Positions 4,212 to 25,824 of a stretch of DNA of 64,000 nt are shown piece after piece. Where the stretch lies: assembly GCF_022846255.1 (NCBI RefSeq), contig NZ_AP025682.1, one strand, 5' to 3'. A program made the translations under genes and the position numbers. The stretch is from Escherichia coli. Lineage in GTDB: Bacteria > Pseudomonadota > Gammaproteobacteria > Enterobacterales > Enterobacteriaceae. How positions within the stretch are numbered: position 1 is the stretch's first letter; each line of letters begins with the position of its first letter. The notes under the pieces were generated by a model, which had not been told where the DNA came from, ran no database searches, and saw only the letters and a list, made by a program, of their open reading frames with translations.

Positions 4212-4227
4212 AGCAATCGCCGTGCCA
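4212..4227 (-). promoter_or_regulatory. Sigma-54 (RpoN) -24/-12 promoter for the lfgBCDEFG operon
   Basis: Reverse complement reads TGGCACggcgaTTGCT, a perfect TGGCAC-N5-TTGCW match; a sigma-54 activator (lafK) is encoded in the same locus. Confidence 0.6.
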
Positions 4228-4256: not shown

Positions 4257-4994
4257 ATGAGTTTTCAATTTTGCAGGCGGAAGTTTTATTTCCTCCTGGC
4301 GCTGGCCTTACCGGGCTACGCCGCCGTCCATCCCGTGCAACATAGCGCGCGGGAACAAGTCAACGCCCAGGTGCTGAATGCCGCCAGCCAGCAGATTGAA
4401 TCGCTAGCGCAGCAGCGGCAGTGGCATGACTATCGCTACACCTTTAAGGTCTACATTCCCTCGCAGATTTCGACTGCCGCGCCCTGCGCTACGGCCCCCG
4501 GCGTCACGCTGACTTCGCCTGCGGAAATCGCTCTCAACCGGATGAACTTCACCGTCAGTTGCCCGCAAAGCTGGCAGATGAACGTCGCGGTGCGCCCGGA
4601 TGTTCTGGTACCGGTGGTGATGGCAAAGTCACTGGTTGCCCGCGATACGCCGCTCACGGCAAATGATGTGGAGCTGAAGCCCTACAACGTCAGCGCCCAG
4701 CGTCGCGATGTGTTGATGGAGCTTGATGACGCGATTGGTTTCAGCAGTAAACACGCGTTGCAGCCGGGCAGGCCAATCACCAAAGAAGAACTGATATCTC
4801 CGGTGCTGGTCGAGCGCGATCAACCGGTGATGATTGTTTACCAGAGCGCGGGGATCAGCGCCTCGCTGCCCGGCGTGGCGCTGAAAAATGGTCGTAAGGG
4901 CGAGATGGTGAAAGTGCGTAACGCCAGCAGCCAGCGGGTCATCAGCGCGATGGTGGCAGAAAGCGGCGTGGTGACGACGGTAAGCGCGGAGTAA
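4257..4994 (+). CDS. lfgA: Flagellar P-ring assembly chaperone FlgA
   Basis: ORF from 4236 (GTG) with likely ATG start at 4257; signal-peptide-like N-terminus; divergent from flgB as in flg loci; C-terminal SAF-like region. Confidence 0.75.
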   Translation: MSFQFCRRKFYFLLALALPGYAAVHPVQHSAREQVNAQVLNAASQQIESLAQQRQWHDYRYTFKVYIPSQISTAAPCATAPGVTLTSPAEIALNRMNFTVSCPQSWQMNVAVRPDVLVPVVMAKSLVARDTPLTANDVELKPYNVSAQRRDVLMELDDAIGFSSKHALQPGRPITKEELISPVLVERDQPVMIVYQSAGISASLPGVALKNGRKGEMVKVRNASSQRVISAMVAESGVVTTVSAE

Positions 4995-5074
4995 TTTGCG
5001 CAGGCGATTAAAGTTTTGCCGCCTGTTAACCGCTTTACTGGAGTAACCCACCTAAATACCGAGACGAGGTTGCG

Positions 5075-5353
5075 ATGAAAATCACCCCGACTATGCCAGG
5101 CAATCGCCCGACAGCCACAACGGCTGGCTCCAGCCAGCCACGCAAAAGCACGGCGACCACCACCACGACGCAGAGCGCAGACGACATTACCCAGGCGGGA
5201 TTGCAGTCTGCCCAGCAAACGCTGAACGACCAGCAAGAGAGCGATATCGACAGCGATAAAGTGGCGCAAATGCAGGCGATGCTGGCGTCCGGCAGCCTGC
5301 AAGTGGACACCGAACAGTTAGCCAGCGACATGCTGAGTTTTTTCCAGAACTAA
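5075..5353 (+). CDS. lfgM: Anti-sigma-28 factor FlgM
   Basis: 92 aa; C-terminal DSDKVAQMQAMLASGSLQVDTEQLASDML is the FlgM sigma-28 binding region. Confidence 0.8.
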   Translation: MKITPTMPGNRPTATTAGSSQPRKSTATTTTTQSADDITQAGLQSAQQTLNDQQESDIDSDKVAQMQAMLASGSLQVDTEQLASDMLSFFQN

Positions 5354-5365
5354 GAGGCCGATGAA

Positions 5366-5794
5366 GTGAGTATCCGGTTACAACAGGTGAAGGCGTTGTT
5401 GCAGGGCATTCGTGACGACGACGCACTGTACGATTCCCTGCGCGAACTTCTCCAGCGTCAGCGGATCTGCATGATTCGCCGCGCCAGCGAAGATCTGCTG
5501 GCGGTAAACGACGAGATAACGCAGCACTATGAACAGTTGCATGGGCATAGCCATCAGCGGCACAGCCTGCTGAAAATGCTTAATGTCAGTGTAAATCGTG
5601 ACGGTCTGGCGCAGGTTTTTGCCTGGCTTCCGGCTGTGCAAAAAGCAGCAGCACAACAGTTGTGGCAACGCCTTGAGCAAAAAGCGGAACGCTGCAAAGC
5701 CTACAACGACAAAAACGGCGAGCTGTTGATTCGCCAGTATGAATTTATTCAGTCTTTTTTAGGCGGCGAAACAGATTTTCTGTACCAGGAATAA
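5366..5794 (+). CDS. lfgN: Flagellar export chaperone FlgN (GTG start)
   Basis: 142 aa helical protein directly after flgM; size and position typical of FlgN. Confidence 0.65.
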   Translation: MSIRLQQVKALLQGIRDDDALYDSLRELLQRQRICMIRRASEDLLAVNDEITQHYEQLHGHSHQRHSLLKMLNVSVNRDGLAQVFAWLPAVQKAAAQQLWQRLEQKAERCKAYNDKNGELLIRQYEFIQSFLGGETDFLYQE

Positions 5795-5882
5795 CGACAA
5801 TTCCTTCCGCCATCGCGGAAACGGATTTTCCGCCTGATTCTCAATCCCTTGTTTTTGATTACAAAAATTCCCGGCACGCTTA

Positions 5883-6851
5883 TTGCACATTCCGCAAAGT
5901 AATAAAGACTGGAAGCCACCTATGAGTTTTATTGAATGTTACGAACCGGAATACGTGCGCAATTTTATGACGCAATATCCCGATTCGCCTTTGTACGTCC
6001 GCAAGGTCTGGAAGAATGAGATTCGCCAGAGCCTGGCATTGACCGATATTGAAAGTTGCAAAGCGGTGCTCAACGATGCCAGGGCCTTTGATTTACAGCT
6101 CACCTACCGCCCTGTGGAAGACAATGCCGCCGAGCTATCCGCGCGCGATGCGATAGTAAACCAGGCCATTTTGAGCACCCTTACGCTCCCCGATTTAACC
6201 CCGGAGCTTTCCCTGTATGCCGTCGGGATTTTGCTCTCCCGCGCCAGTAAAATGCCGGGCAGAGACGGAGATATTCTTGCCCGCTTGACGACGCTGCCAC
6301 AGGCGCTGGGGGATCATGCACAAAAAGGCACGCTACAGGCACAGTTCGCCCAACTCCCACCCGTGCCACAACTGGCGCGCCAACTGGTGACGCTGCTCGG
6401 GAGTTTTGCGTTTGACTGGTCGATTTTGCCGGAAAGCCCGCGCAAAGCCTCGCTACCGTTGCAGGTGACTTTGCTGACGTTGCATGACGCCAACAGCGAA
6501 GCTTTGTTGCAACAGCAGCTTAAGGTGCAGTGGCAAACCACCTGGCAACAGCATTTTGCCGCCGCGCCGTGGATGATGCGCAACTGGCTGATTTACCGAG
6601 TTTATCACGACGTGATTGGGCAGGCAGACGGAGCAGATTATTGCCCGCTGGTGTGTGATTTTTATCTCATCCGCACGTTAATCAGTTTATGGACGCTGGA
6701 TGGTTCTGCGCTGCGGCAGGAGGATATTTTCGCCCTCTTTGCCATGTTTGAACGCTGGCGGACCAGTGAAAATGCGCTGTTTATTCGCCAGCAAATTCAG
6801 TCGTTATGTGCCGCAGAGCCGCTGCTGTCAGCGTTTTCGCTGCTGACGTGA
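5883..6851 (+). CDS. Hypothetical protein in the Flag-2 variable region
   Basis: 322-aa ORF with no recognisable motif; located between lfgN and the glycosyltransferase gene. Confidence 0.5.
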   Translation: MHIPQSNKDWKPPMSFIECYEPEYVRNFMTQYPDSPLYVRKVWKNEIRQSLALTDIESCKAVLNDARAFDLQLTYRPVEDNAAELSARDAIVNQAILSTLTLPDLTPELSLYAVGILLSRASKMPGRDGDILARLTTLPQALGDHAQKGTLQAQFAQLPPVPQLARQLVTLLGSFAFDWSILPESPRKASLPLQVTLLTLHDANSEALLQQQLKVQWQTTWQQHFAAAPWMMRNWLIYRVYHDVIGQADGADYCPLVCDFYLIRTLISLWTLDGSALRQEDIFALFAMFERWRTSENALFIRQQIQSLCAAEPLLSAFSLLT

Positions 6852-6870
6852 GTCGCTCTGTGCGCGCTTT

Positions 6871-6980
6871 GCCCCTCACCCTAACCCTCTCCCCAAAGGG
6901 GCGAGGGGACCGATCGAGCACGGTGTTAAAATCGGCGCTGGTTTTCTCCCTCTCCCTGTGGGAGGGGGTCGGGGTGAGGG
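6871..6980. repeat. Intergenic palindromic repeat (CCCTCTCCC...GGGAGGGGG family), two inverted units
   Basis: gcccctcaccctaaccctctccccaaaggggcgagggg and ctccctctccctgtgggagggggtcggggtgaggg form nested inverted repeats; related copies at 23085-23140 and 25741-25824. Confidence 0.6.
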
Positions 6981-7029
6981 CATCAGCGCGCACATTCATC
7001 ACATTCACCCATTAACTCACCCAGACACC

Positions 7030-9474
7030 ATGCCAACACCGACCATCATCAAAACACTCGCCACCCACCGCGAAAAACCGTTCGTCAGCGTCGTCACGCC
7101 AACCTGGAACCGCGGCGCATTCCTGCCGTACCTGCTTTATATGTACCGCTATCAGGACTACCCGGCAGACCGCCGCGAACTGGTCATCCTCGACGATTCC
7201 CCGCAAAGCCATCAACACATCATCGACCGCCTGACCAATGGCACGCCGGAGTCCTTCAACATCCGCTACATCCATCACCCGGAAAAACTGCCGCTGGGCA
7301 AAAAACGCAACATGCTCAACGAACTGGCGCGCGGCGAATACATCCTCTGCATGGACGATGACGACTACTACCCGGCAGATAAAATCTCTTACACCATCGC
7401 TATGATGCAAAAAAACCGGGCGCTCATCTCCGGTTCCGACCAGATCCCCATCTGGTACAGCCACATCAATCGCATCTTTCAAAGCCGCAGCTTCGGCCCG
7501 CATAACATCCTCAACGGCACCTTTTGCTATCACCGTAACTACCTGAAAAAGCACCGCTACGATGACGATTGCAATTTAGGCGAAGAGAAAAGTTTCACCG
7601 ACAATTTCAGCGCTAACCCGCTACAACTGCCCGGCGAGCGCACGATTTTGTGTATCTCGCACAGCCACAACACCTTTGATAAAGACTTTATCCTCGGGGC
7701 CAGCACGCCTGTAAACGCGGCGCTTACGGATATCGTCAGCGATCCGCTGCTACGCAACGCTTATCTGGGTCTGCATAACGCCACTCATTATCAGGCGATC
7801 CAGCATCAGGCGATCGATCAGATCGTTCTGCTGAATCTGGATAAACGCCCGGATCGCTTACAGCAGATCCGTGAAGAACTGACATTGCTGCATATTCCGC
7901 CTGAGAAGATCACCCGCCTTGCCGCCAGTGAAAATGAAAACGGTCAACGGGGCCGCCAGCAATCACACTTGCAGGCGCTGCATCTGGCGCAACAGCACGG
8001 CTGGCAAAACTATCTGCTGCTGGAAGATGACGCGGTTATTCTCAAACAGGAGAAACATATTCAGGTGCTGAACGCGCTGCTGGCGAGCCTGGCGAAAATT
8101 CCCTGGCAGGTGATGATCCTCGGCGGCGAAATTTCGCAGGGAACGATGCTAAAAAGTTTGCCTGGGCTGGTGCACGCGCGGGACTGCCGCAAAGTGTGCG
8201 CTTATCTGGTGAACAGCCGCTACTACCTGCAGCTGGCGCAGCAGATGAACAACGATGAGCATTCGCTGGAAGGCGGCTGGCAGCCGCTGCTGCGCACCGA
8301 CAAATGGCTGGCCTGTTACCCGAGCCTTTGTTATCAGCGACCGGGCTTTAGTGATATCGAGAAAAAAGCGACTGATAACATTAACCACTACTTCAATAAG
8401 TTACCCGTAGCCACCAAGCCATCTACATTACCTATCGCCGATACCATCGGCTTTTTTATGGAAACCTCATTCCACTACGCGCTCTACCGCCCAATCATCA
8501 CTGCCCTACAGGCGCAAGGACAAAGCTGCACGCTGGTGATCAACGACCGCGTGTTTAAACCGTTTCTGGATGAAATGCTGAATACGTTAAAAAGCATCGA
8601 CGATCCACAGCTCAAAGGAATGCGCTTATCGGAAATGCAGGCACACGGTCAGCGAGTAAAATGCCTGGTCAGCCCCTATCACACGCCTGCGCTCAGTGGC
8701 CTTTCCCCCCTGAACATTCGCGCCATGTACGGCTTAGCCAAAGAAACGTGGAACCACGCCGACTGGAACCGTTTTTATCAGCGCATTTTGTGTTACAGCC
8801 ACTACAGTCAGCGGGCGCTGGCACATTTCGGCAGCGCAAAAGTGGTCGGCAACCCACGCTTCGACGCCTGGCATAACGGCACGTTCGACCGCGCTCTGCC
8901 GGAAAATATCCAACCCGATTCCCGTAAACCTACGGTGCTCTATGCCCCCACGTTTGGCGCATTAAGCTCCCTGCTCCACTGGGCAGAAAAATTGGGGCGT
9001 TTGAGCGGCGATGTGAACCTGATTTGCAAACTGCACCACGGCACCTGCTCGCGCCCGGAAGAAGCCGCATCGCTGGCACTGGCGCGCAGGCATTTAAAAC
9101 AGCGCACCGACTCTGCCCGCCACACGCTGGCGCTACTGGCAAAGGCCGATTACGTGCTCACCGATAACAGCGGGTTTATTTTCGATGCTATCCACGTTGA
9201 TAAACGGGTGATCCTGCTCGACTTTCCGGGCATGACGGAACTGCTCGACGGTGAGAAAAGCTACTCCACGGCAGAGAGCGCCGACCAGCGAATCCGCGAA
9301 ATATTGCCGGTGGCTCATGATGTTGCGGAACTGCGTTACTTATTGTCAGAGGTATTTGACTGGGGGGCGGTTCAGACGCGGCTTACGGAAATTCGCCATC
9401 ACTATTGCGATGCGTTTATGGATGGCAAGGCGGGAGAACGAGCGGCGTTGGTGATTGTGGAGGCGTTGGGGTAA
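7030..9474 (+). CDS. Multidomain glycosyltransferase: N-terminal GT2-like, central GT25-like, C-terminal CDP-glycerol glycerophosphotransferase (TagB/TagF)-like
   Basis: N-terminus VSVVTPTWNR...LDDS and ILCMDDDDYY (GT-A/GT2 signatures); C-terminus VLYAPTF and VLTDNSGFIFDAIHVDKRVILL resemble TagF-family motifs; ORF from 6958, likely ATG at 7030. Confidence 0.6.
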   Translation: MPTPTIIKTLATHREKPFVSVVTPTWNRGAFLPYLLYMYRYQDYPADRRELVILDDSPQSHQHIIDRLTNGTPESFNIRYIHHPEKLPLGKKRNMLNELARGEYILCMDDDDYYPADKISYTIAMMQKNRALISGSDQIPIWYSHINRIFQSRSFGPHNILNGTFCYHRNYLKKHRYDDDCNLGEEKSFTDNFSANPLQLPGERTILCISHSHNTFDKDFILGASTPVNAALTDIVSDPLLRNAYLGLHNATHYQAIQHQAIDQIVLLNLDKRPDRLQQIREELTLLHIPPEKITRLAASENENGQRGRQQSHLQALHLAQQHGWQNYLLLEDDAVILKQEKHIQVLNALLASLAKIPWQVMILGGEISQGTMLKSLPGLVHARDCRKVCAYLVNSRYYLQLAQQMNNDEHSLEGGWQPLLRTDKWLACYPSLCYQRPGFSDIEKKATDNINHYFNKLPVATKPSTLPIADTIGFFMETSFHYALYRPIITALQAQGQSCTLVINDRVFKPFLDEMLNTLKSIDDPQLKGMRLSEMQAHGQRVKCLVSPYHTPALSGLSPLNIRAMYGLAKETWNHADWNRFYQRILCYSHYSQRALAHFGSAKVVGNPRFDAWHNGTFDRALPENIQPDSRKPTVLYAPTFGALSSLLHWAEKLGRLSGDVNLICKLHHGTCSRPEEAASLALARRHLKQRTDSARHTLALLAKADYVLTDNSGFIFDAIHVDKRVILLDFPGMTELLDGEKSYSTAESADQRIREILPVAHDVAELRYLLSEVFDWGAVQTRLTEIRHHYCDAFMDGKAGERAALVIVEALG

Positions 9475-9484
9475 ACCGCGCAAG

Positions 9485-9561
9485 TGCCTGATGCGCTTCG
9501 CTTATCAGGCCTACGGATCGATCACGTCTTGTAGGCAGATAAGGCGTTTACGCCGCATCCG
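9485..9561. repeat. REP elements (two inverted units)
   Basis: tgcctgatgcgcttcgcttatcaggcctac and gtaggcagataaggcgtttacgccgcatccgg match the REP consensus. Confidence 0.7.
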
Positions 9562-9583
9562 GAAAGAAACAAACATCTCTGTG

Positions 9584-9988
9584 TTAGTACTTTATATAAT
9601 TCCCCCTAATCACCTCAATGATCCCCGTCGTCGATACCGACGGCGTACGGGGAAAATAGACCACCTCACAGATACACGAGAAATCGTCAAACTTCCCTGC
9701 CCAGTCATCACCCATCACCAAAATATCCGCACTGTACCCCCACAGATATTCCGCTTTCTGCGCCAGCGACTCCTCCAGAAATACGCCATCCACGCACGCC
9801 AGCCCGGCGATGATCGACATGCGGTCATCCTGATGGTAAACCGGTGCTCTGCCCTTTTTGGCGATATTTAAGGCGTCGGACGATACGCCGACCAGCAGCC
9901 GTTCGCCCAGCGTGCGGGCGCGTTGTAAAAGGCGCAGATGACCGACATGAAACACATCGAAGGTGCCGAAGGTGATGACCGTTTTCAT
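9584..9988 (-). CDS. Glycerol-3-phosphate cytidylyltransferase (TagD-like)
   Basis: MKTVITFGTFDVFHVGHLRLL contains the HxGH nucleotidyltransferase motif, ~135 aa like TagD; start overlaps the lfiJ stop (ORF track start 10021 is upstream of the likely ATG at 9988). Confidence 0.75.
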   Translation of the reverse strand: MKTVITFGTFDVFHVGHLRLLQRARTLGERLLVGVSSDALNIAKKGRAPVYHQDDRMSIIAGLACVDGVFLEESLAQKAEYLWGYSADILVMGDDWAGKFDDFSCICEVVYFPRTPSVSTTGIIEVIRGNYIKY

Positions 9989-9990
9989 GG

Positions 9991-10425
9991 CTACTCCGCT
10001 AATTTGTGCCGTAGCCAGCACTGAACGGCGATATCATCCACCGCTTTTTGCGCTTTCGCCGTGGCACTTTCATGCTGCTCGCGGCGTTTGTCATCCAGCG
10101 TCAGGGCCACCACTTTCTCTTCGCACGCCGCCGCCGTCAGGTTTTTCTGCATTCGCGTAGCCTTGATGTTAGCCAGCGTTTTTTCCTGCTCCTGCCAGGC
10201 GATCACCTTGCGTAAGGTGCCTTTGTAGCCGCTGACGTTTTTCAGCGATTCCACCGACGCCGCCGCGTCCGCAGACGTTTTCTCCACCAGGTAGCCTAAC
10301 GCTTTGATATTGTTGTCATAGCCCGCGCAGATCTGTTTTTGCTTTGCCAGTTCGACGGTTTTGTCTTTGACCGATTTATCCCGCAGGCGCTGCAACTGCG
10401 CCAGAGTGTCGATGATTTGTCGCAT
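9991..10425 (-). CDS. lfiJ: Flagellar export chaperone FliJ
   Basis: 144-aa coiled-coil-type protein immediately downstream of fliI. Confidence 0.7.
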   Translation of the reverse strand: MRQIIDTLAQLQRLRDKSVKDKTVELAKQKQICAGYDNNIKALGYLVEKTSADAAASVESLKNVSGYKGTLRKVIAWQEQEKTLANIKATRMQKNLTAAACEEKVVALTLDDKRREQHESATAKAQKAVDDIAVQCWLRHKLAE

Positions 10426-10427
10426 GG

Positions 10428-11768
10428 TTATTGCCCTTCTGCCTTTTTGCCGTTGGGAAAGAGGATTTGCAGGCGGCTTTGCACCAGTTCGAGGGAAGCG
10501 GGTTCGTGCATCTCCTGGCGCAAAAATCGCTCGATAGCCGGGAACATTTTCACCGCTTTGTCGACGCTGGCGTCGGCACCTGCCACGTAGCCCCCGAGCG
10601 GGATCAGCGGTTTGATCTCCATATAGGCGGCGTAGTTTTGTTTCATCGCACGGGCGGATTGCTGATGTTCCGGGCTGGTGACCTGGTTCATGCAGCGGCT
10701 GATCGACTGGCCGATATCAATAGCCGGATAGTGCCCCGCTTCCGCCAGTTTGCGGGTTAATACGATATGTCCGTCCAGCACTGCGCGGGCGCAGTCGACT
10801 ATTGGATCTTGCTGGTCGTCGCCTTCCGCCAGCACGGTGTAGATGGCGGTCATCGATCCTGCGCTTTCGCTGTTGCCTGCGCTCTCGACCAGTTTGGGGA
10901 TCATGCCGAATGCCGATGGCGGATAGCCTTTGGTGGCGGGCGGTTCGCCGAGTGAAAGAGCAATTTCCCGCTGAGCCATGGCGTAGCGGGTCAGGGAATC
11001 CACCAGCAGTAAAACGTGATGCCCGCGGTCGCGAAACCAGGCGGCGATGGAGTGGCACAGTTCGGTGGCTTTCAGGCGCATCAGCGGCGATTCATCGGCA
11101 GGCGCGACAACAACGATAGACTTTGCCAGCCCGTCCGCGCCCAGCGAATGGTCAATAAACTCTTTCACTTCGCGCCCGCGTTCGCCAATCAACCCGACCA
11201 CCACAATGTCGGCTTTGGTCTGGCGGGTGATCATCCCCAGCAGCACGCTTTTCCCGACGCCGCTGCCCGCCATCAGCCCGACACGCTGGCCTTTGCCGAT
11301 GGTCAGCAGGCCGTTAATCGCTTTCACGCCCACGTCCAGCGGTTCGTCCACTGAACGGCGGGTTAAGGGATTGACCGAGGGTGGCAGCGGCGGCAGAAGG
11401 TCGTTGCCGTTCAGGCGGCCTTTGCCATCCAGCGGTTCGCCGAGACCGTTAACCACGCGGCCTAACCAGCTTTCGCCAATCAGGATGTCGTGGGCTTTTT
11501 CTTCCGGGAAGACGCGTGCGCCTGCCATCAGGCCGACCGGCTGTTTAAACGGCATTAAGTAGGTGATGTCGCGATTAAAGCCCACGGCCTGCGCGTCGAT
11601 CAGCGTGTGATTGGCGCTTTCGATGCGGCACAGTTGCCCGGTCATTAGCGGGCAGCCGACGCTCTCCAGCAGAATGCCGTTCAGGCGCACCAGCCGCCCG
11701 GCGACGCGGGCCAGCGGGATCGACTCCAGCGAGCGCAGGGCGTTATCGAAAGCAGAAAAATCACTCAC
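10428..11768 (-). CDS. lfiI: Flagellum-specific ATPase FliI
   Basis: 446 aa; Walker A GSGVGKS, F1/T3SS ATPase layout. Confidence 0.9.
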   Translation of the reverse strand: MSDFSAFDNALRSLESIPLARVAGRLVRLNGILLESVGCPLMTGQLCRIESANHTLIDAQAVGFNRDITYLMPFKQPVGLMAGARVFPEEKAHDILIGESWLGRVVNGLGEPLDGKGRLNGNDLLPPLPPSVNPLTRRSVDEPLDVGVKAINGLLTIGKGQRVGLMAGSGVGKSVLLGMITRQTKADIVVVGLIGERGREVKEFIDHSLGADGLAKSIVVVAPADESPLMRLKATELCHSIAAWFRDRGHHVLLLVDSLTRYAMAQREIALSLGEPPATKGYPPSAFGMIPKLVESAGNSESAGSMTAIYTVLAEGDDQQDPIVDCARAVLDGHIVLTRKLAEAGHYPAIDIGQSISRCMNQVTSPEHQQSARAMKQNYAAYMEIKPLIPLGGYVAGADASVDKAVKMFPAIERFLRQEMHEPASLELVQSRLQILFPNGKKAEGQ

Positions 11769-15469: not shown

Positions 15470-16456
15470 TCAGGAGAAAACTTCGATACCGTGCTTGCGC
15501 ATGGAGGCCAGTCGATAGCGCAGTGCGCGCGGGGTAATGCCTAACAGGTCGGCAATTTTGCTGCGGTTGCCCTGATATTTACGCATCAGGTCGGCGATAT
15601 ATTGATACTGCGCACTTCGTCCGGCCTGGCCTAAATCGCTGGTTTCCGCAACAGATACGGAGGGCTGAACAGGCCATTGCAGTTCACTGTGATCGGCAAC
15701 GTCTATTTCCGGCAGGCCTAAGGCATCCGGGAAAATCACGCCGTCGCGGTTTAAAATCATTCCCCGCTGAATGGCGTTCTCCAGCTGACGCACGTTGCCG
15801 GGCCAGCGGTAATTGAGCAGCGCCCGGCGGGTAGATTCTGAAAGGGTGATATTTTTCACCAGCACCGTGGAGTATTTTTTAATAAATGACTCTGCCAATG
15901 GAATAATATCGTTCAGACGTTCACGCAGCGGCGGCATGGTAATAGGAATTACCGCCAGACGATAATAGAGATCTTCACGAAAACGCCCGGCGGCAACTTC
16001 CTGTTCAAGGTTTTTATTGGTACAGGCAATCAGGCGAAAATTGAGTTTAATTTGTCGGTTGCTGCCTAATCGCTCAACCTGTTGTTCCTGCAACACGCGT
16101 AATATTTTGGCCTGAAGCGCCAGCGGCATATCGCCAATTTCATCGAGTAATAAGGTGCCGTTATTCGCCAGTTCCATTTTTCCTGGCACGCTGGCAATTG
16201 CGCCGGTAAATGCACCTTTGTCGTAGCCAAATAAGGTAGATTCCAGCATATTTTCCGGGATCGCCGCGCAGTTCACGCCGACATAGGGTGCGCTTTCATT
16301 TTCACCAAAGGCTACGGTGTGAATATATTTTGCCACGCACTCTTTGCCCGCGCCGGTTTCGCCCTGAATGAGCACCGGCACGTTAAATGCGGCGACACGC
16401 TTTGCCAGAGTAAAAGCGTTAATGCTGGAAGCGGCAGTTGCAATAAGTTCAGACAT
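15470..16456 (-). CDS. lafK: Sigma-54-dependent transcriptional activator (LafK-like), AAA+ plus HTH only, no receiver domain
   Basis: Walker A GETGAGKE, GAFTGA sigma-54 contact motif, C-terminal HTH; only 328 aa and begins directly at the AAA+ domain. Confidence 0.8.
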   Translation of the reverse strand: MSELIATAASSINAFTLAKRVAAFNVPVLIQGETGAGKECVAKYIHTVAFGENESAPYVGVNCAAIPENMLESTLFGYDKGAFTGAIASVPGKMELANNGTLLLDEIGDMPLALQAKILRVLQEQQVERLGSNRQIKLNFRLIACTNKNLEQEVAAGRFREDLYYRLAVIPITMPPLRERLNDIIPLAESFIKKYSTVLVKNITLSESTRRALLNYRWPGNVRQLENAIQRGMILNRDGVIFPDALGLPEIDVADHSELQWPVQPSVSVAETSDLGQAGRSAQYQYIADLMRKYQGNRSKIADLLGITPRALRYRLASMRKHGIEVFS

Positions 16457-25740: not shown

Positions 25741-25824
25741 CCCCCGGCGAAGATTGATTAAAAAGTAAAAAGGTGCAGGCTGTTACCCTCACCCCGGCCC
25801 TCTCCCTGAAAGGGAGAAAAGACC
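25741..25824. repeat. Palindromic repeat (CCCTCTCCCtgaaaGGGAGAAAAG)
   Basis: ccctcaccccggccctctccctgaaagggag; same repeat family as 6871-6980. Confidence 0.55.

What the first reader, a model, noticed from the sequence alone, without database searches (positions are those of the whole stretch)
5883..10021. Flag-2 variable region: fused multidomain glycosyltransferase plus TagD-like cytidylyltransferase co-operonic with lfiJ, suggesting a glycerol-phosphate-containing flagellar modification
Between lfgN and lfiJ lie a 322-aa unknown protein and a ~815-aa protein combining a GT2-like N-terminus, a central GT25-like region and a C-terminal TagB/TagF-like CDP-glycerol glycerophosphotransferase-like domain. 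On the other strand there is a ~135-aa HxGH cytidylyltransferase (TagD-like, makes CDP-glycerol) whose start overlaps the lfiJ stop. A CDP-glycerol-producing enzyme next to a CDP-glycerol-using transferase inside a flagellar locus points to teichoic-acid-like (glycerol-phosphate) decoration of lateral flagellin or of a flagellin glycan, which would be unusual chemistry for enterobacterial flagella.
Basis: inference. Interest (0 to 1): 0.75.

Follow-up and report, generated by a model that had tools for sequence, protein, structure and literature searches.

The report
Lateral-flagellum glycan genes, already described
This is the known variable region of the Escherichia second (lateral, Flag-2) flagellar locus, carrying a three-domain sugar/glycerol-phosphate transferase, a CDP-glycerol-type synthase and a FliB-like protein; the idea that they put a teichoic-acid-like group on the lateral flagellin was published in 2020 and is still untested at the bench.

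Summary
Between lfgN and lfiJ lie lafV (FliB-like, 309 aa), an 814-aa enzyme with three domains (GT2, GT25-like, TagB/TagF-like), and a 134-aa TagD-like cytidylyltransferase that starts 2 nt after the lfiJ stop.

- In 29 related Flag-2 loci, tagD is present in 18 of 21 with a TagF-like enzyme and in 0 of 8 without one.
- In two of the three tagD-less loci the TagF donor-site motifs have decayed.
- All three genes are under purifying selection.
- A conserved sigma-54 promoter precedes lafV.
- A Burkholderia lateral-flagellar cluster places the same GT–LafV pair beside a gene set resembling C. difficile CD0241–CD0244 (by Pfam family) and a flagellin gene.

It is not new. De Maayer et al. 2020 catalogued these genes (GT2-1, TagD, LafV1) and proposed teichoic-acid-like flagellin glycans. 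The same logic, a GT plus a TagF-like phosphotransferase, is known from C. difficile and P. aeruginosa FgtA.

What this analysis adds is small: TagD's partner in Escherichia is the fused C-terminal domain of GT2-1, and that domain probably has Tyr where the family's catalytic His sits. The chemistry remains unproven. Interest is low to moderate.

The parts
5873..5886 (+). Sigma-54-type -24/-12 promoter element (GGCACgcttaTTGC), about 36-50 nt upstream of the lafV ATG
   Evidence: Exact match to GGCAC-N5-TTGC. There are only 3 matches in 64 kb, and one of the others (4213-4226, minus strand) sits directly upstream of lfgB. The element is found 50-65 nt upstream of the lafV ATG in 13 of 16 related loci and at -112 in a 14th, Leminorella L012. 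A sigma-54 activator, LafK, is encoded at 15470-16456 on the minus strand.
5922..6851 (+). lafV: FliB-like protein of 309 aa (C-terminal FliB region only)
   Evidence: NCBIfam NF038110 scores 37.8 bits, below the cut-off of 85, over profile positions 106-363/373. The Pfam release used by profile_search gives no hit. The Burkholderia homologue (25% identity, E 2e-20) carries PF27117 FliB_C. RefSeq calls it lysine-N-methylase or hypothetical. dN/dS is 0.11-0.32.
6859..6994 (.). Dispersed palindromic intergenic repeat (35-nt arms) between lafV and the GT gene. It is not part of the enzyme system.
   Evidence: Inverted repeat with 80% complementary arms. The 178-bp spacer matches a median of 5 places per E. 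coli genome in 4605 of 5426 genomes. It is absent from strain A20, where the lafV-GT gap is 46 nt.
7030..7794 (+). GT gene, domain 1: GT2 (GT-A) glycosyltransferase, residues 1-255
   Evidence: Pfam PF00535 E 1.1e-17 over residues 20-134. The DDS (55-57) and DDDD (109-112) motifs are invariant in 29 homologues. PDB sequence hits include PglI and TarS.
7795..8433 (+). GT gene, domain 2: GT25-like GT-A domain, residues 256-468
   Evidence: Its own Pfam GT25 hit is not significant (E 3). Four stand-alone VR1 homologues (31-36% identity) hit PF01755 at <=1e-3, the best at 3.6e-7. Fused homologues P0085 and P0087 carry PF01755. The best PDB fold match is COLGALT1, a tandem GT-A enzyme (E 2.5e-13). 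E332-D333-D334 are invariant.
8434..9474 (+). GT gene, domain 3: TagB/TagF-like (Glyphos_transf) GT-B domain, residues 469-814, plus the stop codon
   Evidence: Pfam PF04464 E 8e-4; 8 of 13 relatives at <=1e-3. TarL profile hit at 0.0044. Foldseek matches TagF at 3.6e-10 with TM 0.60. AFDB matches Firmicute CDP-glycerol glycerophosphotransferases at 30-31% identity, TM 0.83-0.85. hhalign places KLHH on the KxHP motif of a canonical TarF-like protein. The motifs YGLAK, YAPT[FY]G, KLHHGT and [TS]D[NS]SGF.FDA are identical or near-identical in all 13 tagD-positive loci aligned. dN/dS is 0.09-0.10.
9484..9562 (.). Pair of REP-type palindromic units between the convergent GT and tagD genes
   Evidence: Read directly from the sequence. 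It is conserved in E. coli SMS-3-5, where a 1.57-kb insert carrying two hypothetical genes follows it.
9584..9988 (-). tagD-like cytidylyltransferase, 134 aa, last gene of the lafK-lfiEFGHIJ string
   Evidence: PDB 1COZ (B. subtilis TagD) E 7.7e-32, full length, 48% identity. HxGH, K44, R55, GDDW.GKFD and RT...STT are conserved. TIGR01518 scores 112.3 bits, below the cut-off of 165.4. Pfam CTP_transf_like E 5e-17. The ATG lies 2 nt after the lfiJ stop, with GGAG at 9997-9994. dN/dS is 0.12-0.21.
9991..10425 (-). lfiJ (FliJ of the Flag-2 export apparatus), the upstream neighbour of tagD
   Evidence: TIGR02473 scores 55.5 bits, above its cut-off.

Best explanation
This is the glycan-modification module (variable region 1) of the Escherichia Flag-2 lateral-flagellar locus. 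Three soluble cytoplasmic proteins are encoded.

Proposed mechanism:
1. The TagD-like enzyme condenses CTP with sn-glycerol-3-phosphate to give CDP-glycerol. This step is inferred from 48% identity to solved TagD.
2. The 814-aa enzyme uses its two GT-A domains (GT2 and GT25-like) to attach and extend a short O-linked glycan on the lateral flagellin LafA before export. This step is inferred.
3. Its C-terminal TagF-like domain then transfers glycerol-phosphate from CDP-glycerol onto that glycan through a phosphodiester bond. This step is inferred. What the comparative data show is that the TagF-like domain and tagD are functionally coupled.
4. LafV, a FliB-C-terminal-domain protein always paired with this GT, either methylates flagellin lysines or helps the GT recognise flagellin. 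Its role is unknown.

Expression is tied to flagellar assembly. lafV-GT sits behind a conserved sigma-54 (LafK-type) promoter, and tagD is translationally coupled to lfiJ.

The logic matches the C. difficile type A and P. aeruginosa b-type flagellin glycans (GT, then nucleotidyltransferase, then TagF-like phosphotransferase). The differences are that the donor module is swapped for TagD and that the transferases are fused into one chain.
For: Domain assignments:
- GT2.
- GT25-like.
- TagF-like.
- TagD-like: full-length match to PDB 1COZ/2B7L with catalytic motifs intact.

Coupling of tagD to the TagF-like enzyme:
- Among 29 informative Flag-2 VR1 loci from many genera, tagD occurs in 18 of 21 loci that have a TagF-like enzyme (fused, stand-alone or TarF-type) and in 0 of 8 that lack one. 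Fisher p = 3.8e-5, not corrected for phylogeny.
- Where the TagF-like part is a separate gene, it lies directly next to tagD (L024, L029).
- In two of the three tagD-less loci (L012, L014) exactly the TagF donor-site motifs have degenerated, whereas they are identical or near-identical in all tagD-positive loci.
- In Phytobacter the C-terminal domain is replaced by a KpsS-like domain and tagD is absent.

Link to the flagellum:
- Every homologous locus found lies between lfiJ and lfgN.
- A sigma-54 element upstream of lafV is conserved across genera, a matching element precedes lfgB, and LafK is encoded in the window.
- The tagD ATG lies 2 nt after the lfiJ stop.
- In Burkholderia oklahomensis the GT2+GT25 homologue and a LafV homologue head an operon that continues with a methyltransferase, a HAD hydrolase, an NTP-transferase and a Glyphos_transf protein, followed immediately by a flagellin gene and motAB. 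By Pfam family these four resemble the CD0241-CD0244 set described in PMC10714395; no sequence comparison was possible.

Other support:
- No transmembrane segments are predicted in any of the three proteins.
- Purifying selection: dN/dS 0.09-0.32.
- The same hypothesis appears in the literature: PMC6993521 (and supplement).
Against: - There is no chemical or genetic evidence for any Flag-2 flagellin modification, and none was found in the paper library.
- The lateral flagellin gene is not in the window.
- TagD scores below NCBI's equivalog threshold (112 vs 165 bits). Its substrate loop (KKGRAPVY) differs from TagD's (KQKKAY) and carries an RxPV-like element that I recall (from memory, not tested here) from HldE and ECT-type enzymes. 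TagD K46 aligns with Gly.
- The N-terminal half of the TagF-like domain does not align by sequence with canonical family members.
- The position after the strand that carries the family's W-H catalytic base reads M566-Y567-G568, not W-H-G (PMC10901376).
- Three loci keep a TagF-like domain without tagD in the sequence available.
- VR1 is also a general hotspot for unrelated cargo genes (PMC6993521).
- From my own knowledge, Flag-2 is cryptic or inactivated in several E. coli strains.
Confidence: 0.5

Rival explanations
1. The machinery and target are the same, but the activated donor is not CDP-glycerol. The TagD-like enzyme would activate another phospho-alcohol or sugar-phosphate (for example another polyol phosphate, phosphoethanolamine, or a heptose-1-phosphate as in HldE domain II). 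The TagF-like domain would then transfer that group.
For: - TIGR01518 scores below its cut-off (112 vs 165 bits), and the second-best family is rfaE domain II at 73 bits.
- The substrate loop differs from that of TagD and TarD, and K46 is not conserved.
- TagF-like domains are known to use CDP-ribitol, hexose-phosphate donors and probably CDP-threonine (PMC10901376, PMC5974469, PMC10714395).
- In Citrobacter and Enterobacter VR1 regions, tagD sits next to a GT9 (heptosyltransferase-family) gene.
Against: - Similarity to solved TagD (113 bits, 48% identity) far exceeds that to ECT (65 bits), CCT (about 30 bits) or other relatives.
- The GDDW.GKFD block, which by the alignment is shared with TagD and TarD, is conserved.
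- CDD cd02171 matched at E 4e-46 in PMC6993521.
- sn-Glycerol-3-phosphate needs no extra biosynthetic gene, which fits the minimal three-gene module.
Confidence: 0.15
2. The module does not act on flagellin. It is cargo in an integration hotspot. It would decorate another molecule, such as another exported flagellar protein or a cytoplasmic-face envelope precursor.
For: - VR1 carries unrelated cargo such as EcoRII/Dcm and fimbrial genes in some strains (PMC6993521).
- E. coli strains differ here by a 1.57-kb insert and IS elements.
- No flagellin-recognition domain can be named.
- TagF-family enzymes normally act on lipid-linked acceptors at the membrane (PMC10901376).
Against: - Among the enterobacterial loci retrieved, the GT, LafV and tagD genes lie only inside flag-2 loci, across at least eight genera.
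- The conserved sigma-54 promoter and the translational coupling to lfiJ tie them to flagellar expression.
- The Burkholderia homologues lie immediately upstream of a flagellin gene.
- No membrane segment is predicted.
- Precedent exists for TagF-like enzymes acting on flagellin glycans (PMC10714395).
Confidence: 0.15
3. It is a relic. The genes are intact, but the glycerophosphotransferase domain is catalytically dead because the first catalytic histidine is replaced, and/or Flag-2 is not expressed. No glycerol-phosphate would then be added.
For: - Tyr567 probably occupies the position of the invariant catalytic His (TagF H444, TarL H300) (PMC10901376).
- The window's own Pfam hits are marginal.
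- From my own knowledge, Flag-2 is inactivated or deleted in many E. coli strains.
- Decay of the same domain is visible in Leminorella and in C. freundii M-21.
Against: - dN/dS of the TagF-like domain is 0.09-0.10, the lowest of the three domains.
- The YGLAK, YAPT[FY]G, KLHHGT and [TS]D[NS]SGF.FDA motifs are identical or near-identical in all tagD-positive loci at only 48-57% overall identity, and they decay when tagD is lost.
- A near-invariant His576 lies 9 residues downstream and could serve as the base.
- All Flag-2 core genes checked in the window are full length.
Confidence: 0.1
4. Polymerase reading. Like the GT-A/TagF-like capsule polymerases of Gram-negative pathogens, the three-domain enzyme would act repeatedly. 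It would build a teichoic-acid-like poly(glycosyl-glycerol-phosphate) chain rather than add a single cap.
For: - The architecture (GT-A domains fused to a TagF-like domain, plus a CDP-glycerol synthase) parallels the capsule polymerases Cps1B and CslB (PMC5974469).
- PMC6993521 speaks of 'glycopolymers'.
Against: - Flagellin is exported unfolded through a narrow channel, so a long polyanionic chain is hard to reconcile with export. This is general knowledge, not tested here.
- The enzyme has no TPR or oligomerisation domain like the capsule polymerases.
- The flagellin precedents (C. difficile, P. aeruginosa) carry single phosphodiester-linked caps.
Confidence: 0.08

Closest known systems
Flag-2 variable region 1 (VR1) cargo set GT2-1 / TagD / LafV1 of Enterobacterales (De Maayer et al. 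2020, BMC Genomics 21:100, PMC6993521)
   Same: It is the same locus: between lfiJ and lfgN, with the same three gene families. In that paper GT2-1 averages 828 aa in 222 strains of 8 genera, TagD is 133 aa in 235 strains, and LafV1 is 311 aa. The paper proposes the same hypothesis, that teichoic-acid-type glycopolymers form part of the Flag-2 flagellin glycan.
   Different: - The paper annotates GT2-1 only as pfam00535. It lists TagB-type enzymes in just 65 strains, which leaves most TagD genes without a named partner. Here the partner is shown to be the C-terminal domain of GT2-1.
- The window carries the minimal three-gene version. About half of Flag-2-positive E. coli genomes have two extra hypothetical genes.
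C. difficile type A flagellin glycan cluster CD0240-CD0244, and P. aeruginosa PAO1 PA1088-PA1091 (FgtA)
   Same: - A GT puts a sugar on flagellin.
- A nucleotidyltransferase makes a CDP-activated donor.
- A TagF-like phosphotransferase links that donor to the sugar by a phosphodiester.
- In P. aeruginosa the GT and the TagF-like domain are fused in FgtA (PMC10714395).
- A Burkholderia lateral-flagellar operon combines the window's GT and LafV homologues with gene families matching, by Pfam, the rest of the CD0241-0244 set.
   Different: - The donor module here is a TagD-type (HxGH) cytidylyltransferase alone. It is not an NTP_transf_3-type enzyme accompanied by a HAD phosphatase and a methyltransferase. 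The predicted group is therefore glycerol-phosphate, not phospho-N-methyl-threonine.
- There are two GT-A domains instead of one.
TagF-like capsule polymerases of Gram-negative pathogens (GT-A/TagF-like architecture: CslB, Cps1B, Cps12B; Litschko et al. 2018, PMC5974469)
   Same: One polypeptide fuses a GT-A glycosyltransferase domain (DxD motif) to a TagF-like phosphotransferase domain in a Gram-negative bacterium, and the products resemble teichoic acids.
   Different: - Those enzymes sit in group 2 capsule loci, carry TPR domains, act as polymerases on lipid-anchored chains, and keep both catalytic histidines.
- This enzyme sits in a flagellar locus, has no TPR domain, and probably has Tyr at the first histidine position.
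Wall teichoic acid enzymes TagD/TarD and TagB/TagF/TarF/TarL of Firmicutes
   Same: - TagD-like: 48% identity to B. subtilis TagD and 40% to S. aureus TarD, with the catalytic motifs kept.
- TagF-like: GT-B fold, the YAPT, KxH and TDxSxxxFD donor-site motifs, and the second catalytic His.
   Different: - No membrane-binding region is predicted, there is no lipid-linked acceptor pathway, and the host is Gram-negative.
- The N-terminal subdomain is very divergent and the W-H catalytic dyad is not recognisable.
- TagD K46 is not conserved.
Salmonella FliB flagellin lysine-N-methylase (NCBIfam NF038110)
   Same: LafV aligns with FliB profile positions about 106-363 and lies in a flagellar locus.
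   Different: - LafV lacks roughly the first 100 residues of FliB and scores below the family cut-off.
- The Escherichia/Citrobacter clade also lacks the CxCxxC motif seen in the LafV of other genera.
- Methylase activity has not been tested.

Membership tests
Glycerol-3-phosphate cytidylyltransferase (TagD/TarD; TIGR01518, cd02171) | Full-length similarity to structurally solved TagD/TarD | tested here: met
   PDB 1COZ E 7.7e-32, residues 1-129 vs 1-128, 48% identity. PDB 2B7L E 8.5e-27, 40% identity.
Glycerol-3-phosphate cytidylyltransferase (TagD/TarD; TIGR01518, cd02171) | HxGH and RTxGISTT nucleotide-binding motifs | tested here: met
   H14-V-G-H17 and R-T-P-S-V-S-T-T are present. D38, K44, R55 and GDDW.GKFD are also conserved.
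Glycerol-3-phosphate cytidylyltransferase (TagD/TarD; TIGR01518, cd02171) | Score above the curated equivalog cut-off | tested here: not met
   TIGR01518 scores 112.3 bits against a cut-off of 165.4. PGAP accordingly names the protein only 'adenylyltransferase/cytidyltransferase family protein'.
Glycerol-3-phosphate cytidylyltransferase (TagD/TarD; TIGR01518, cd02171) | Lys44/Lys46 pair of the substrate loop | tested here: inconclusive
   K44 is conserved. K46 aligns with Gly, flanked by K45 and R47, in a loop that is 2 residues longer (KKGRAPVY vs KQKKA-Y).
Glycerol-3-phosphate cytidylyltransferase (TagD/TarD; TIGR01518, cd02171) | Makes CDP-glycerol from CTP and sn-glycerol-3-phosphate | not testable with these tools
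   Requires an enzyme assay.
TagB/TagF/TarL family (Pfam Glyphos_transf PF04464) | Significant match to the family profile | tested here: met
   The window's domain scanned alone gives E 8e-4, covering profile positions 162-290 of 367 only. Eight of 13 relatives reach <=1e-3, the best at 8.3e-11. Stand-alone homologues 42-58% identical (most 45-55%) carry PF04464 and the NCBI family name.
TagB/TagF/TarL family (Pfam Glyphos_transf PF04464) | GT-B fold superposable on TagF/TarL | tested here: met
   Foldseek matches TagF (3L7L) at E 3.6e-10 with TM(target) 0.60, and TarL (8VA1) at 2.5e-8. UDP-GlcNAc 2-epimerases score similarly, so the fold alone does not discriminate. AFDB matches Firmicute CDP-glycerol glycerophosphotransferases at TM 0.83-0.85 and 30-31% identity.
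TagB/TagF/TarL family (Pfam GlyPhos_transf PF04464) | Second catalytic histidine (TagF H584, TarL H433; the K-x-H-P motif) | tested here: met
   hhalign puts K667-L-H669-H670 on K-N-H-P of a canonical TarF-like protein. TarL H433 lies in K-M-H-P (PMC10901376). KLHHGT is identical in all tagD-positive loci.
TagB/TagF/TarL family (Pfam Glyphos_transf PF04464) | First catalytic histidine (TagF H444, TarL W299-H300; the W-H-G/A motif after a beta strand) | tested here: inconclusive
   The N-terminal subdomain does not align by sequence. By position after strand 562-565 the residues are M566-Y567-G568. They are conserved wherever tagD is present and are His in one homologue. The near-invariant H576 in W-N-H-A is an alternative candidate. 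A residue-level structural superposition was not available.
TagB/TagF/TarL family (Pfam Glyphos_transf PF04464) | Genomic association with a CDP-polyol synthase | tested here: met
   tagD is present in 18 of 21 loci with a TagF-like enzyme and in 0 of 8 without one (Fisher p = 3.8e-5). Stand-alone forms lie adjacent to tagD.
TagB/TagF/TarL family (Pfam Glyphos_transf PF04464) | Monotopic membrane association and a lipid-linked acceptor | not tested
   Only a hydropathy scan was run. No 19-residue window reaches 1.6. Amphipathic helices were not analysed.
Glycosyltransferase family 25 (Pfam PF01755) | Significant match to the family profile | tested here: inconclusive
   The window's own central domain gives E 3, which is not significant. 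Membership rests on transitive homology. Four stand-alone homologues at 31-36% identity and two fused homologues reach E<=1e-3. The fold match to COLGALT1 is E 2.5e-13.
Glycosyltransferase family 25 (Pfam PF01755) | Acidic metal/donor-binding motif of GT-A enzymes | tested here: met
   E332-D333-D334 are invariant in 29 full-length homologues. D-D is invariant in the 9-sequence domain alignment, where Glu is Ser in one sequence.
Glycosyltransferase family 2 (Pfam PF00535) | Profile match and DxD motifs | tested here: met
   PF00535 E 1.1e-17, matched by all 29 of 29 homologues. D55-D56-S57 and D109-D110-D111 are invariant.
FliB flagellin lysine-N-methylase (NF038110) | Full-length match above the cut-off, including the N-terminal region | tested here: not met
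   37.8 bits against a cut-off of 85. Only profile positions 106-363/373 are matched, and this holds for all LafV proteins examined. LafV is best described as a protein made of the FliB C-terminal domain only (PF27117 on the Burkholderia homologue).
Type A-like flagellin glycan systems (C. difficile CD0240-0244, P. aeruginosa PA1088-1091) | GT, nucleotidyltransferase and TagF-like phosphotransferase encoded together in a flagellar locus | tested here: met
   All three activities are predicted within 5922-9988 of a flagellar locus. The Burkholderia homologous operon sits next to a flagellin gene.
Type A-like flagellin glycan systems (C. difficile CD0240-0244, P. aeruginosa PA1088-1091) | NTP_transf-type nucleotidyltransferase, HAD phosphatase and methyltransferase that build the donor | tested here: not met
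   None of these is present in the window's VR1. A TagD-type enzyme takes their place. The system therefore works like this family, but with a different donor module.
Type A-like flagellin glycan systems (C. difficile CD0240-0244, P. aeruginosa PA1088-1091) | Phosphodiester-linked group demonstrated on the flagellin glycan | not testable with these tools
   Requires mass spectrometry or NMR of LafA.

The most novel reading that the evidence does not exclude
The fused GT2-GT25-TagF-like enzyme, fed by TagD, would act processively like the GT-A/TagF-like capsule polymerases. It would build a teichoic-acid-like oligo- or poly(glycosyl-glycerol-phosphate) chain on the lateral flagellin of a Gram-negative bacterium, using a TagF-like active site in which Tyr replaces the family's otherwise invariant catalytic histidine.

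An even more speculative variant rests on two observations: the GT25 domain resembles collagen hydroxylysine galactosyltransferase, and it is always paired with the lysine-directed FliB-like LafV. On that basis the sugar would be attached through a modified lysine.
Probability: 0.08. Interest if true: 0.75.

Novelty: already known. Interest (0 to 1): 0.3.

Why it matters
If the prediction is right, Escherichia, Citrobacter, Enterobacter and related genera decorate their lateral flagellin with a glycerol-phosphate-bearing glycan. No such flagellin modification has been shown chemically in the papers I could search. It would be a negatively charged, teichoic-acid-like epitope that could affect filament assembly, surface behaviour, phage or immune recognition, and serology.

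The practical value of this analysis is to narrow the experiment. One fused enzyme and one small cytidylyltransferase are sufficient candidates. Specific residues are nominated for mutagenesis: D109/D111, E332/D333, Y567, H576 and H669. Natural controls also exist, namely tagD-less loci with decayed motifs and a variant with a KpsS-like domain swap.

As a discovery it ranks low. The genes are annotated in more than a thousand complete E. coli genomes, and the hypothesis is already in print.

Tried and rejected
- Sigma-70 promoter and intrinsic-terminator scans of 4900-10600 gave nothing above shuffled expectation in the relevant intergenic regions.
- A sigma-28-type pattern (TAAAG-N14-GCCGATAA, up to 3 mismatches) gave only scattered weak matches, none in the lafV or GT upstream regions.
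- Rfam on 5000-10600 gave only a sub-threshold plant miRNA hit on the palindromic repeat. This is spurious.
- Pfam on LafV gave no hit at all. Only NCBIfam, and a newer precomputed Pfam family on a homologue, recognise it.
- Sequence searches of the PDB with the whole protein or the whole-protein profile did not reach TagF or TarL. Only the C-terminal domain profile did, and weakly.
- hhalign of the C-terminal domain profile against a canonical TarF-like protein aligned only the C-terminal Rossmann half (probability 7%, E 0.005). The first catalytic His could therefore not be placed by sequence. A MAFFT add-alignment was unreliable there.
- Pairwise BLASTP between the window's TagF-like domain and the Burkholderia Glyphos_transf protein was not significant (E 0.63). 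They belong to different clades of the family.
- The AlphaFold model of the full protein has low confidence in GT2 residues 103-219 and low pTM (0.48). Inter-domain geometry was not interpreted.
- The idea that the region is an E. coli-specific oddity was rejected. It occurs in at least eight genera.
- The idea that the 838-aa GTG start is real was rejected, because it lies inside a mobile repeat that is absent from other strains.
- Ren et al. 2005, the original Flag-2 description, is not in the searchable library.
- The sequences of CD0240, CD0244 and PA1091 could not be obtained, so direct homology to them was not tested.

Full report
**What is in the window**

Positions 1-23072 carry clusters 1 and 2 of an Escherichia Flag-2 (lateral flagella) locus.
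- The lfgF, lfgE, lfgC, lfgB, lfgA, lfgM and lfgN genes lie to the left of the finding.
- lfiJ, lfiI, lfiH, lfiG, lfiF and lfiE, a sigma-54 activator (LafK, 15470-16456, minus strand), and the lfiP, lfiR, lfhB and lfhA homologues lie to the right.
- These are followed by yafK and fadE.
- The 5.2-kb stretch around the finding is 96% identical to E. coli SMS-3-5 and many other complete E. coli genomes. The GT-tagD junction is 98.4% identical to strain A20.
- The lateral flagellin gene lies outside the window.

**Checking the observation**

The three ORFs exist, with the following details.
- The 322-aa ORF (TTG 5883) is annotated in RefSeq from the ATG at 5922 (309 aa). That ATG has a GGAAG Shine-Dalgarno sequence.
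- This protein is not unknown. NCBIfam's FliB lysine-N-methylase model matches it at 37.8 bits, below the cut-off of 85, over model positions 106-363 of 373. It is the LafV of the Flag-2 literature.
- The 838-aa ORF begins (GTG 6958) inside a 35-nt-arm palindromic repeat. That repeat occurs about five times per E. coli genome and is missing from strain A20 at this site. The real start is ATG 7030, giving 814 aa.
- The cytidylyltransferase starts at ATG 9988. The lfiJ stop codon is at 9993-9991 and a GGAG lies at 9997-9994, so the genes abut with a 2-nt gap rather than overlapping.
- It is the last gene of an uninterrupted minus-strand string, lafK-lfiEFGHIJ-tagD. A pair of REP units (9484-9562) separates it from the convergent GT gene.

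**Domain architecture of the 814-aa protein**

Domain 1 (residues 1-255) is a clear GT2. Pfam gives E 1e-17, and the DDS and DDDD motifs are invariant in 29 homologues.

Domain 2 (residues 256-468) is GT25-like by transitive and structural evidence.
- It gives no significant Pfam hit on its own.
- It is 31-36% identical to stand-alone proteins in other VR1 regions that hit PF01755, the best at 3.6e-7. Two fused homologues also hit PF01755.
- E332-D333-D334 are invariant in the 29 full-length homologues.
- The best PDB fold match of the whole model is human collagen galactosyltransferase COLGALT1, itself a tandem GT-A enzyme whose catalytic half is GT25 (E 2.5e-13, about 540 aligned columns).

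Domain 3 (residues 469-814) belongs to the TagB/TagF/TarL family.
- Pfam PF04464 gives E 8e-4 for the window's domain scanned alone. Eight of 13 relatives reach <=1e-3, the best at 8e-11.
- A profile of the domain hits S. aureus TarL in the PDB at 0.0044.
- Foldseek places TagF first among GT-B hits (3.6e-10, TM 0.60). UDP-GlcNAc 2-epimerases score close behind.
- AFDB returns Firmicute CDP-glycerol glycerophosphotransferases at 30-31% identity and TM 0.83-0.85.
- Stand-alone enterobacterial homologues of about 350-390 aa, 42-58% identical (most 45-55%) over the whole domain, carry PF04464. NCBI names them 'CDP-glycerol glycerophosphotransferase family protein', and one fused homologue 'bifunctional glycosyltransferase family 2 protein/CDP-glycerol:glycerophosphate glycerophosphotransferase'.

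**Active-site check of the TagF-like domain**

The family has two catalytic histidines: TagF H444 and H584, or TarL H300 and H433 (PMC10901376 and PMC5974469).
- The second histidine sits in a K-x-H-P motif. hhalign against a canonical TarF-like protein from another VR1 region (L022, NF041712 E 1e-16) puts the window's K667-L-H669-H670 on K-N-H-P.
- The first histidine follows a beta strand as W-H-G/A (Q-L-W-H-G in the canonical protein). In the window the strand 562-565 is followed by M566-Y567-G568-L-A-K.
- This YGLAK block is identical in every tagD-positive locus. One homologue reads L-H-G there.
- Tyr probably occupies the histidine position, and the near-invariant H576 (W-N-H-A) is a possible substitute.
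- I could not obtain a residue-level structural superposition, so this point stays open.

**The cytidylyltransferase**

- It matches solved B. subtilis TagD over its full length (E 7.7e-32, 48% identity) and S. aureus TarD (40% identity). The next-best relative, human ECT, scores 65 bits against 113.
- HxGH, D38, K44, R55, GDDW.GKFD and RT...STT are all conserved.
- Against a simple call: TIGR01518 scores 112 bits, under its cut-off of 165. The substrate loop is two residues longer (KKGRAPVY), and TagD K46 aligns with Gly.
- Glycerol-3-phosphate is the most likely substrate, but it is not proven.

**Are tagD and the TagF-like domain functionally coupled?**

I fetched 30 related loci from one genome per species and located the parts by tblastn and ORF inspection.
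- All the enterobacterial loci lie between lfiJ and lfgN.
- A TagF-like enzyme is present in 21 informative loci: fused in 17, a separate gene in L020, L024 and L029, and a canonical TarF-type in L022. tagD is present in 18 of these 21.
- In the 8 complete loci without a TagF-like enzyme, tagD is never present. Fisher p = 3.8e-5, uncorrected for shared ancestry.
- In L024 and L029 the stand-alone TagF-like gene is immediately followed by tagD.
- In Phytobacter the C-terminal domain is replaced by a KpsS-like domain and tagD is absent.
- In the three loci that have the domain but no tagD, two (Leminorella L012 and C. freundii M-21 L014) have lost exactly the donor-site motifs. YAPT[FY]G became YAPSLD or YAPALN, KLHHGT became LLHNDD or VLQHGA, and TDNSGF became SDDDAR or GDNRAL. 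All 13 tagD-positive loci aligned keep these motifs identical or near-identical at only 48-57% overall identity.
- Within Escherichia the TagF-like domain has the lowest dN/dS of the three domains (0.09-0.10). The whole GT gene gives 0.12-0.14 and tagD 0.12-0.21, compared with 0.03-0.05 for lfiI and lfiJ.

I take the coupling as shown at the comparative level.

**Is the target the lateral flagellum?**

- A textbook sigma-54 -24/-12 element (GGCACgcttaTTGC) lies at 5873-5886, upstream of lafV. A second lies directly upstream of lfgB. There are only three matches in 64 kb.
- The lafV element is found in 14 of 16 loci from several genera, 50-65 nt upstream of the ATG in 13 of them and at -112 in L012.
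- The cognate activator LafK is in the window.
- tagD is coupled to lfiJ.
- None of the three proteins has a predicted membrane segment. This fits modification of flagellin in the cytoplasm before export.
- The strongest outside evidence comes from Burkholderia oklahomensis. A 490-aa homologue of domains 1 and 2 (45% identity) and a 309-aa LafV homologue (E 2e-20, Pfam FliB_C) head an operon. It continues with a methyltransferase, a HAD hydrolase, an IspD/NTP_transf_3 nucleotidyltransferase and a Glyphos_transf protein, and is followed at once by a flagellin gene and motAB.
- By Pfam family, those four genes resemble the CD0241-CD0244 set that builds the phospho-N-methyl-threonine cap of the C. 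difficile type A flagellin glycan. In that system the TagF-like CD0244 is required genetically, and P. aeruginosa FgtA fuses the GT and TagF-like domains (PMC10714395). I could not compare the sequences directly.

The Escherichia module looks like the same design with a swapped donor cassette (TagD alone) and a fused transferase.

**Most likely mechanism**

1. TagD makes CDP-glycerol.
2. The GT2 and GT25-like domains put a short glycan on LafA.
3. The TagF-like domain adds glycerol-phosphate through a phosphodiester bond.
4. LafV, which accompanies this GT in 24 of the 29 enterobacterial Flag-2 loci and in Burkholderia, methylates lysines or helps recognise flagellin.

Steps 1 to 3 are inferences from homology and gene coupling. 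None is shown chemically. I put the whole chain at about 0.5.

Rivals:
- A different activated donor (0.15).
- A non-flagellin target (0.15).
- A dead or unexpressed relic (0.1).
- A polymerase that builds a teichoic-acid-like chain, as the GT-A/TagF-like capsule polymerases do (0.08; PMC5974469).

**Comparison with what is known, and novelty**

- De Maayer et al. 2020 (PMC6993521) define VR1 between lfiJ and lfgN.
- They list GT2-1 (828 aa, 222 strains, 8 genera), TagD (133 aa, 235 strains), TagB1-8 (65 strains) and LafV1-10 (342 strains).
- They state that teichoic-acid-type glycopolymers probably form part of the Flag-2 flagellin glycan.
- RefSeq annotates all three genes in hundreds of complete E. 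coli genomes.

What is added here is modest.
- The paper scored GT2-1 only as pfam00535, so most of its TagD genes had no listed partner. The partner is the C-terminal domain of GT2-1.
- The coupling is backed by motif decay in tagD-less loci.
- The first catalytic histidine seems to be replaced.
- The Burkholderia operon ties the GT-LafV pair to the type A-like glycan design.

No paper in the searchable library reports any chemistry on Flag-2 flagellin.

**Verdict**

Interest is 0.3.

Noticed in passing
window 6859-6994 (spacer 6852-7029): The lafV-GT spacer is filled by a palindromic repeat with 35-nt arms (80% complementary). It is dispersed in E. coli, with a median of 5 places per genome in 4605 of 5426 genomes. 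It is absent from the same site in strain A20, where the gap is 46 nt. It creates the spurious upstream GTG start of the GT ORF. A related arm occurs at 25787-25806 in the window.
   Followed up: partly
window 9475-9583; L001 7176-8865: About half of the E. coli genomes that carry this region have a 1.57-kb low-GC insert right after the REP pair, holding two hypothetical genes (273 and 179 aa) with no NCBIfam hit. The window and 568 genomes lack it. Some strains (A25) carry an ISEc13 insertion in the region instead.
   Followed up: partly
window 4213-4226 (-) and 5873-5886 (+): Two of the only three exact GGCAC-N5-TTGC (sigma-54-type) matches in 64 kb sit directly upstream of lfgB and lafV. 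The lafV element is conserved across genera. This suggests that the glycan genes belong to the LafK/sigma-54 regulon.
   Followed up: partly
window 5922-6851; L020 11401-12303, L022 5458-6402, L024 11323-12297: All LafV proteins match only the C-terminal roughly 260 residues of the FliB model. A CxCxxC motif near the N-terminus is present in the Erwinia/Enterobacter-type LafV but missing in the Escherichia/Citrobacter/Leminorella type. LafV accompanies the GT2+GT25 glycosyltransferase in 24 of the 29 enterobacterial Flag-2 loci and also in Burkholderia. De Maayer's counts are 342 strains with LafV against 341 with a GT. This hints that the two act together.
   Followed up: partly
window 8728-8760 (GT residues 567-577): The residue at the position of the TagF family's catalytic histidine appears to be Tyr567, within RAMYGLAK. 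The block is identical in all tagD-positive loci and reads His in one Citrobacter homologue. A near-invariant His576 follows in W-N-H-A.
   Followed up: partly
L012 11423-12415; L014 11447-12394; L011 11393-12427: Three loci keep the fused TagF-like domain but have no tagD in the 20 kb fetched. In Leminorella grimontii and C. freundii M-21 the donor-site motifs have decayed. In MAG UBA7338 they are intact. Whether tagD lies elsewhere in those genomes is unknown.
   Followed up: partly
L015 9971-12583 (Phytobacter massiliensis): A variant of the same enzyme (870 aa) has a KpsS-like (Kdo-transferase family) C-terminal domain in place of the TagF-like one, and its locus has no tagD. P0078 and P0079 carry Pfam Capsule_synth likewise. 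This suggests modular swapping of the capping domain.
   Followed up: partly
L033 8001-14617 (Burkholderia oklahomensis chromosome 2): A second-flagellar-system operon reads GT2+GT25-like, FliB_C (LafV-like), methyltransferase, HAD, NTP-transferase, Glyphos_transf, then flagellin and motAB. By Pfam family it is a Gram-negative counterpart of the C. difficile CD0240-CD0244 type A flagellin glycan cluster.
   Followed up: partly
L004 14915-17146, L024 12342-13967: In Citrobacter and Enterobacter VR1 regions, a large GT9 (heptosyltransferase-family) protein is encoded just downstream of tagD, with FkbM-type and other methyltransferases nearby. Their glycans are therefore likely more elaborate than the Escherichia one.
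   Followed up: no
window 7030-9474 (model m6bf7e1501104): AlphaFold2 with a 29-sequence alignment models the GT25-like and TagF-like domains confidently (pLDDT mostly 85-95). It leaves GT2 residues 103-219 below 50, although Pfam recognises that domain strongly. The overall pTM is 0.48.
   Followed up: no
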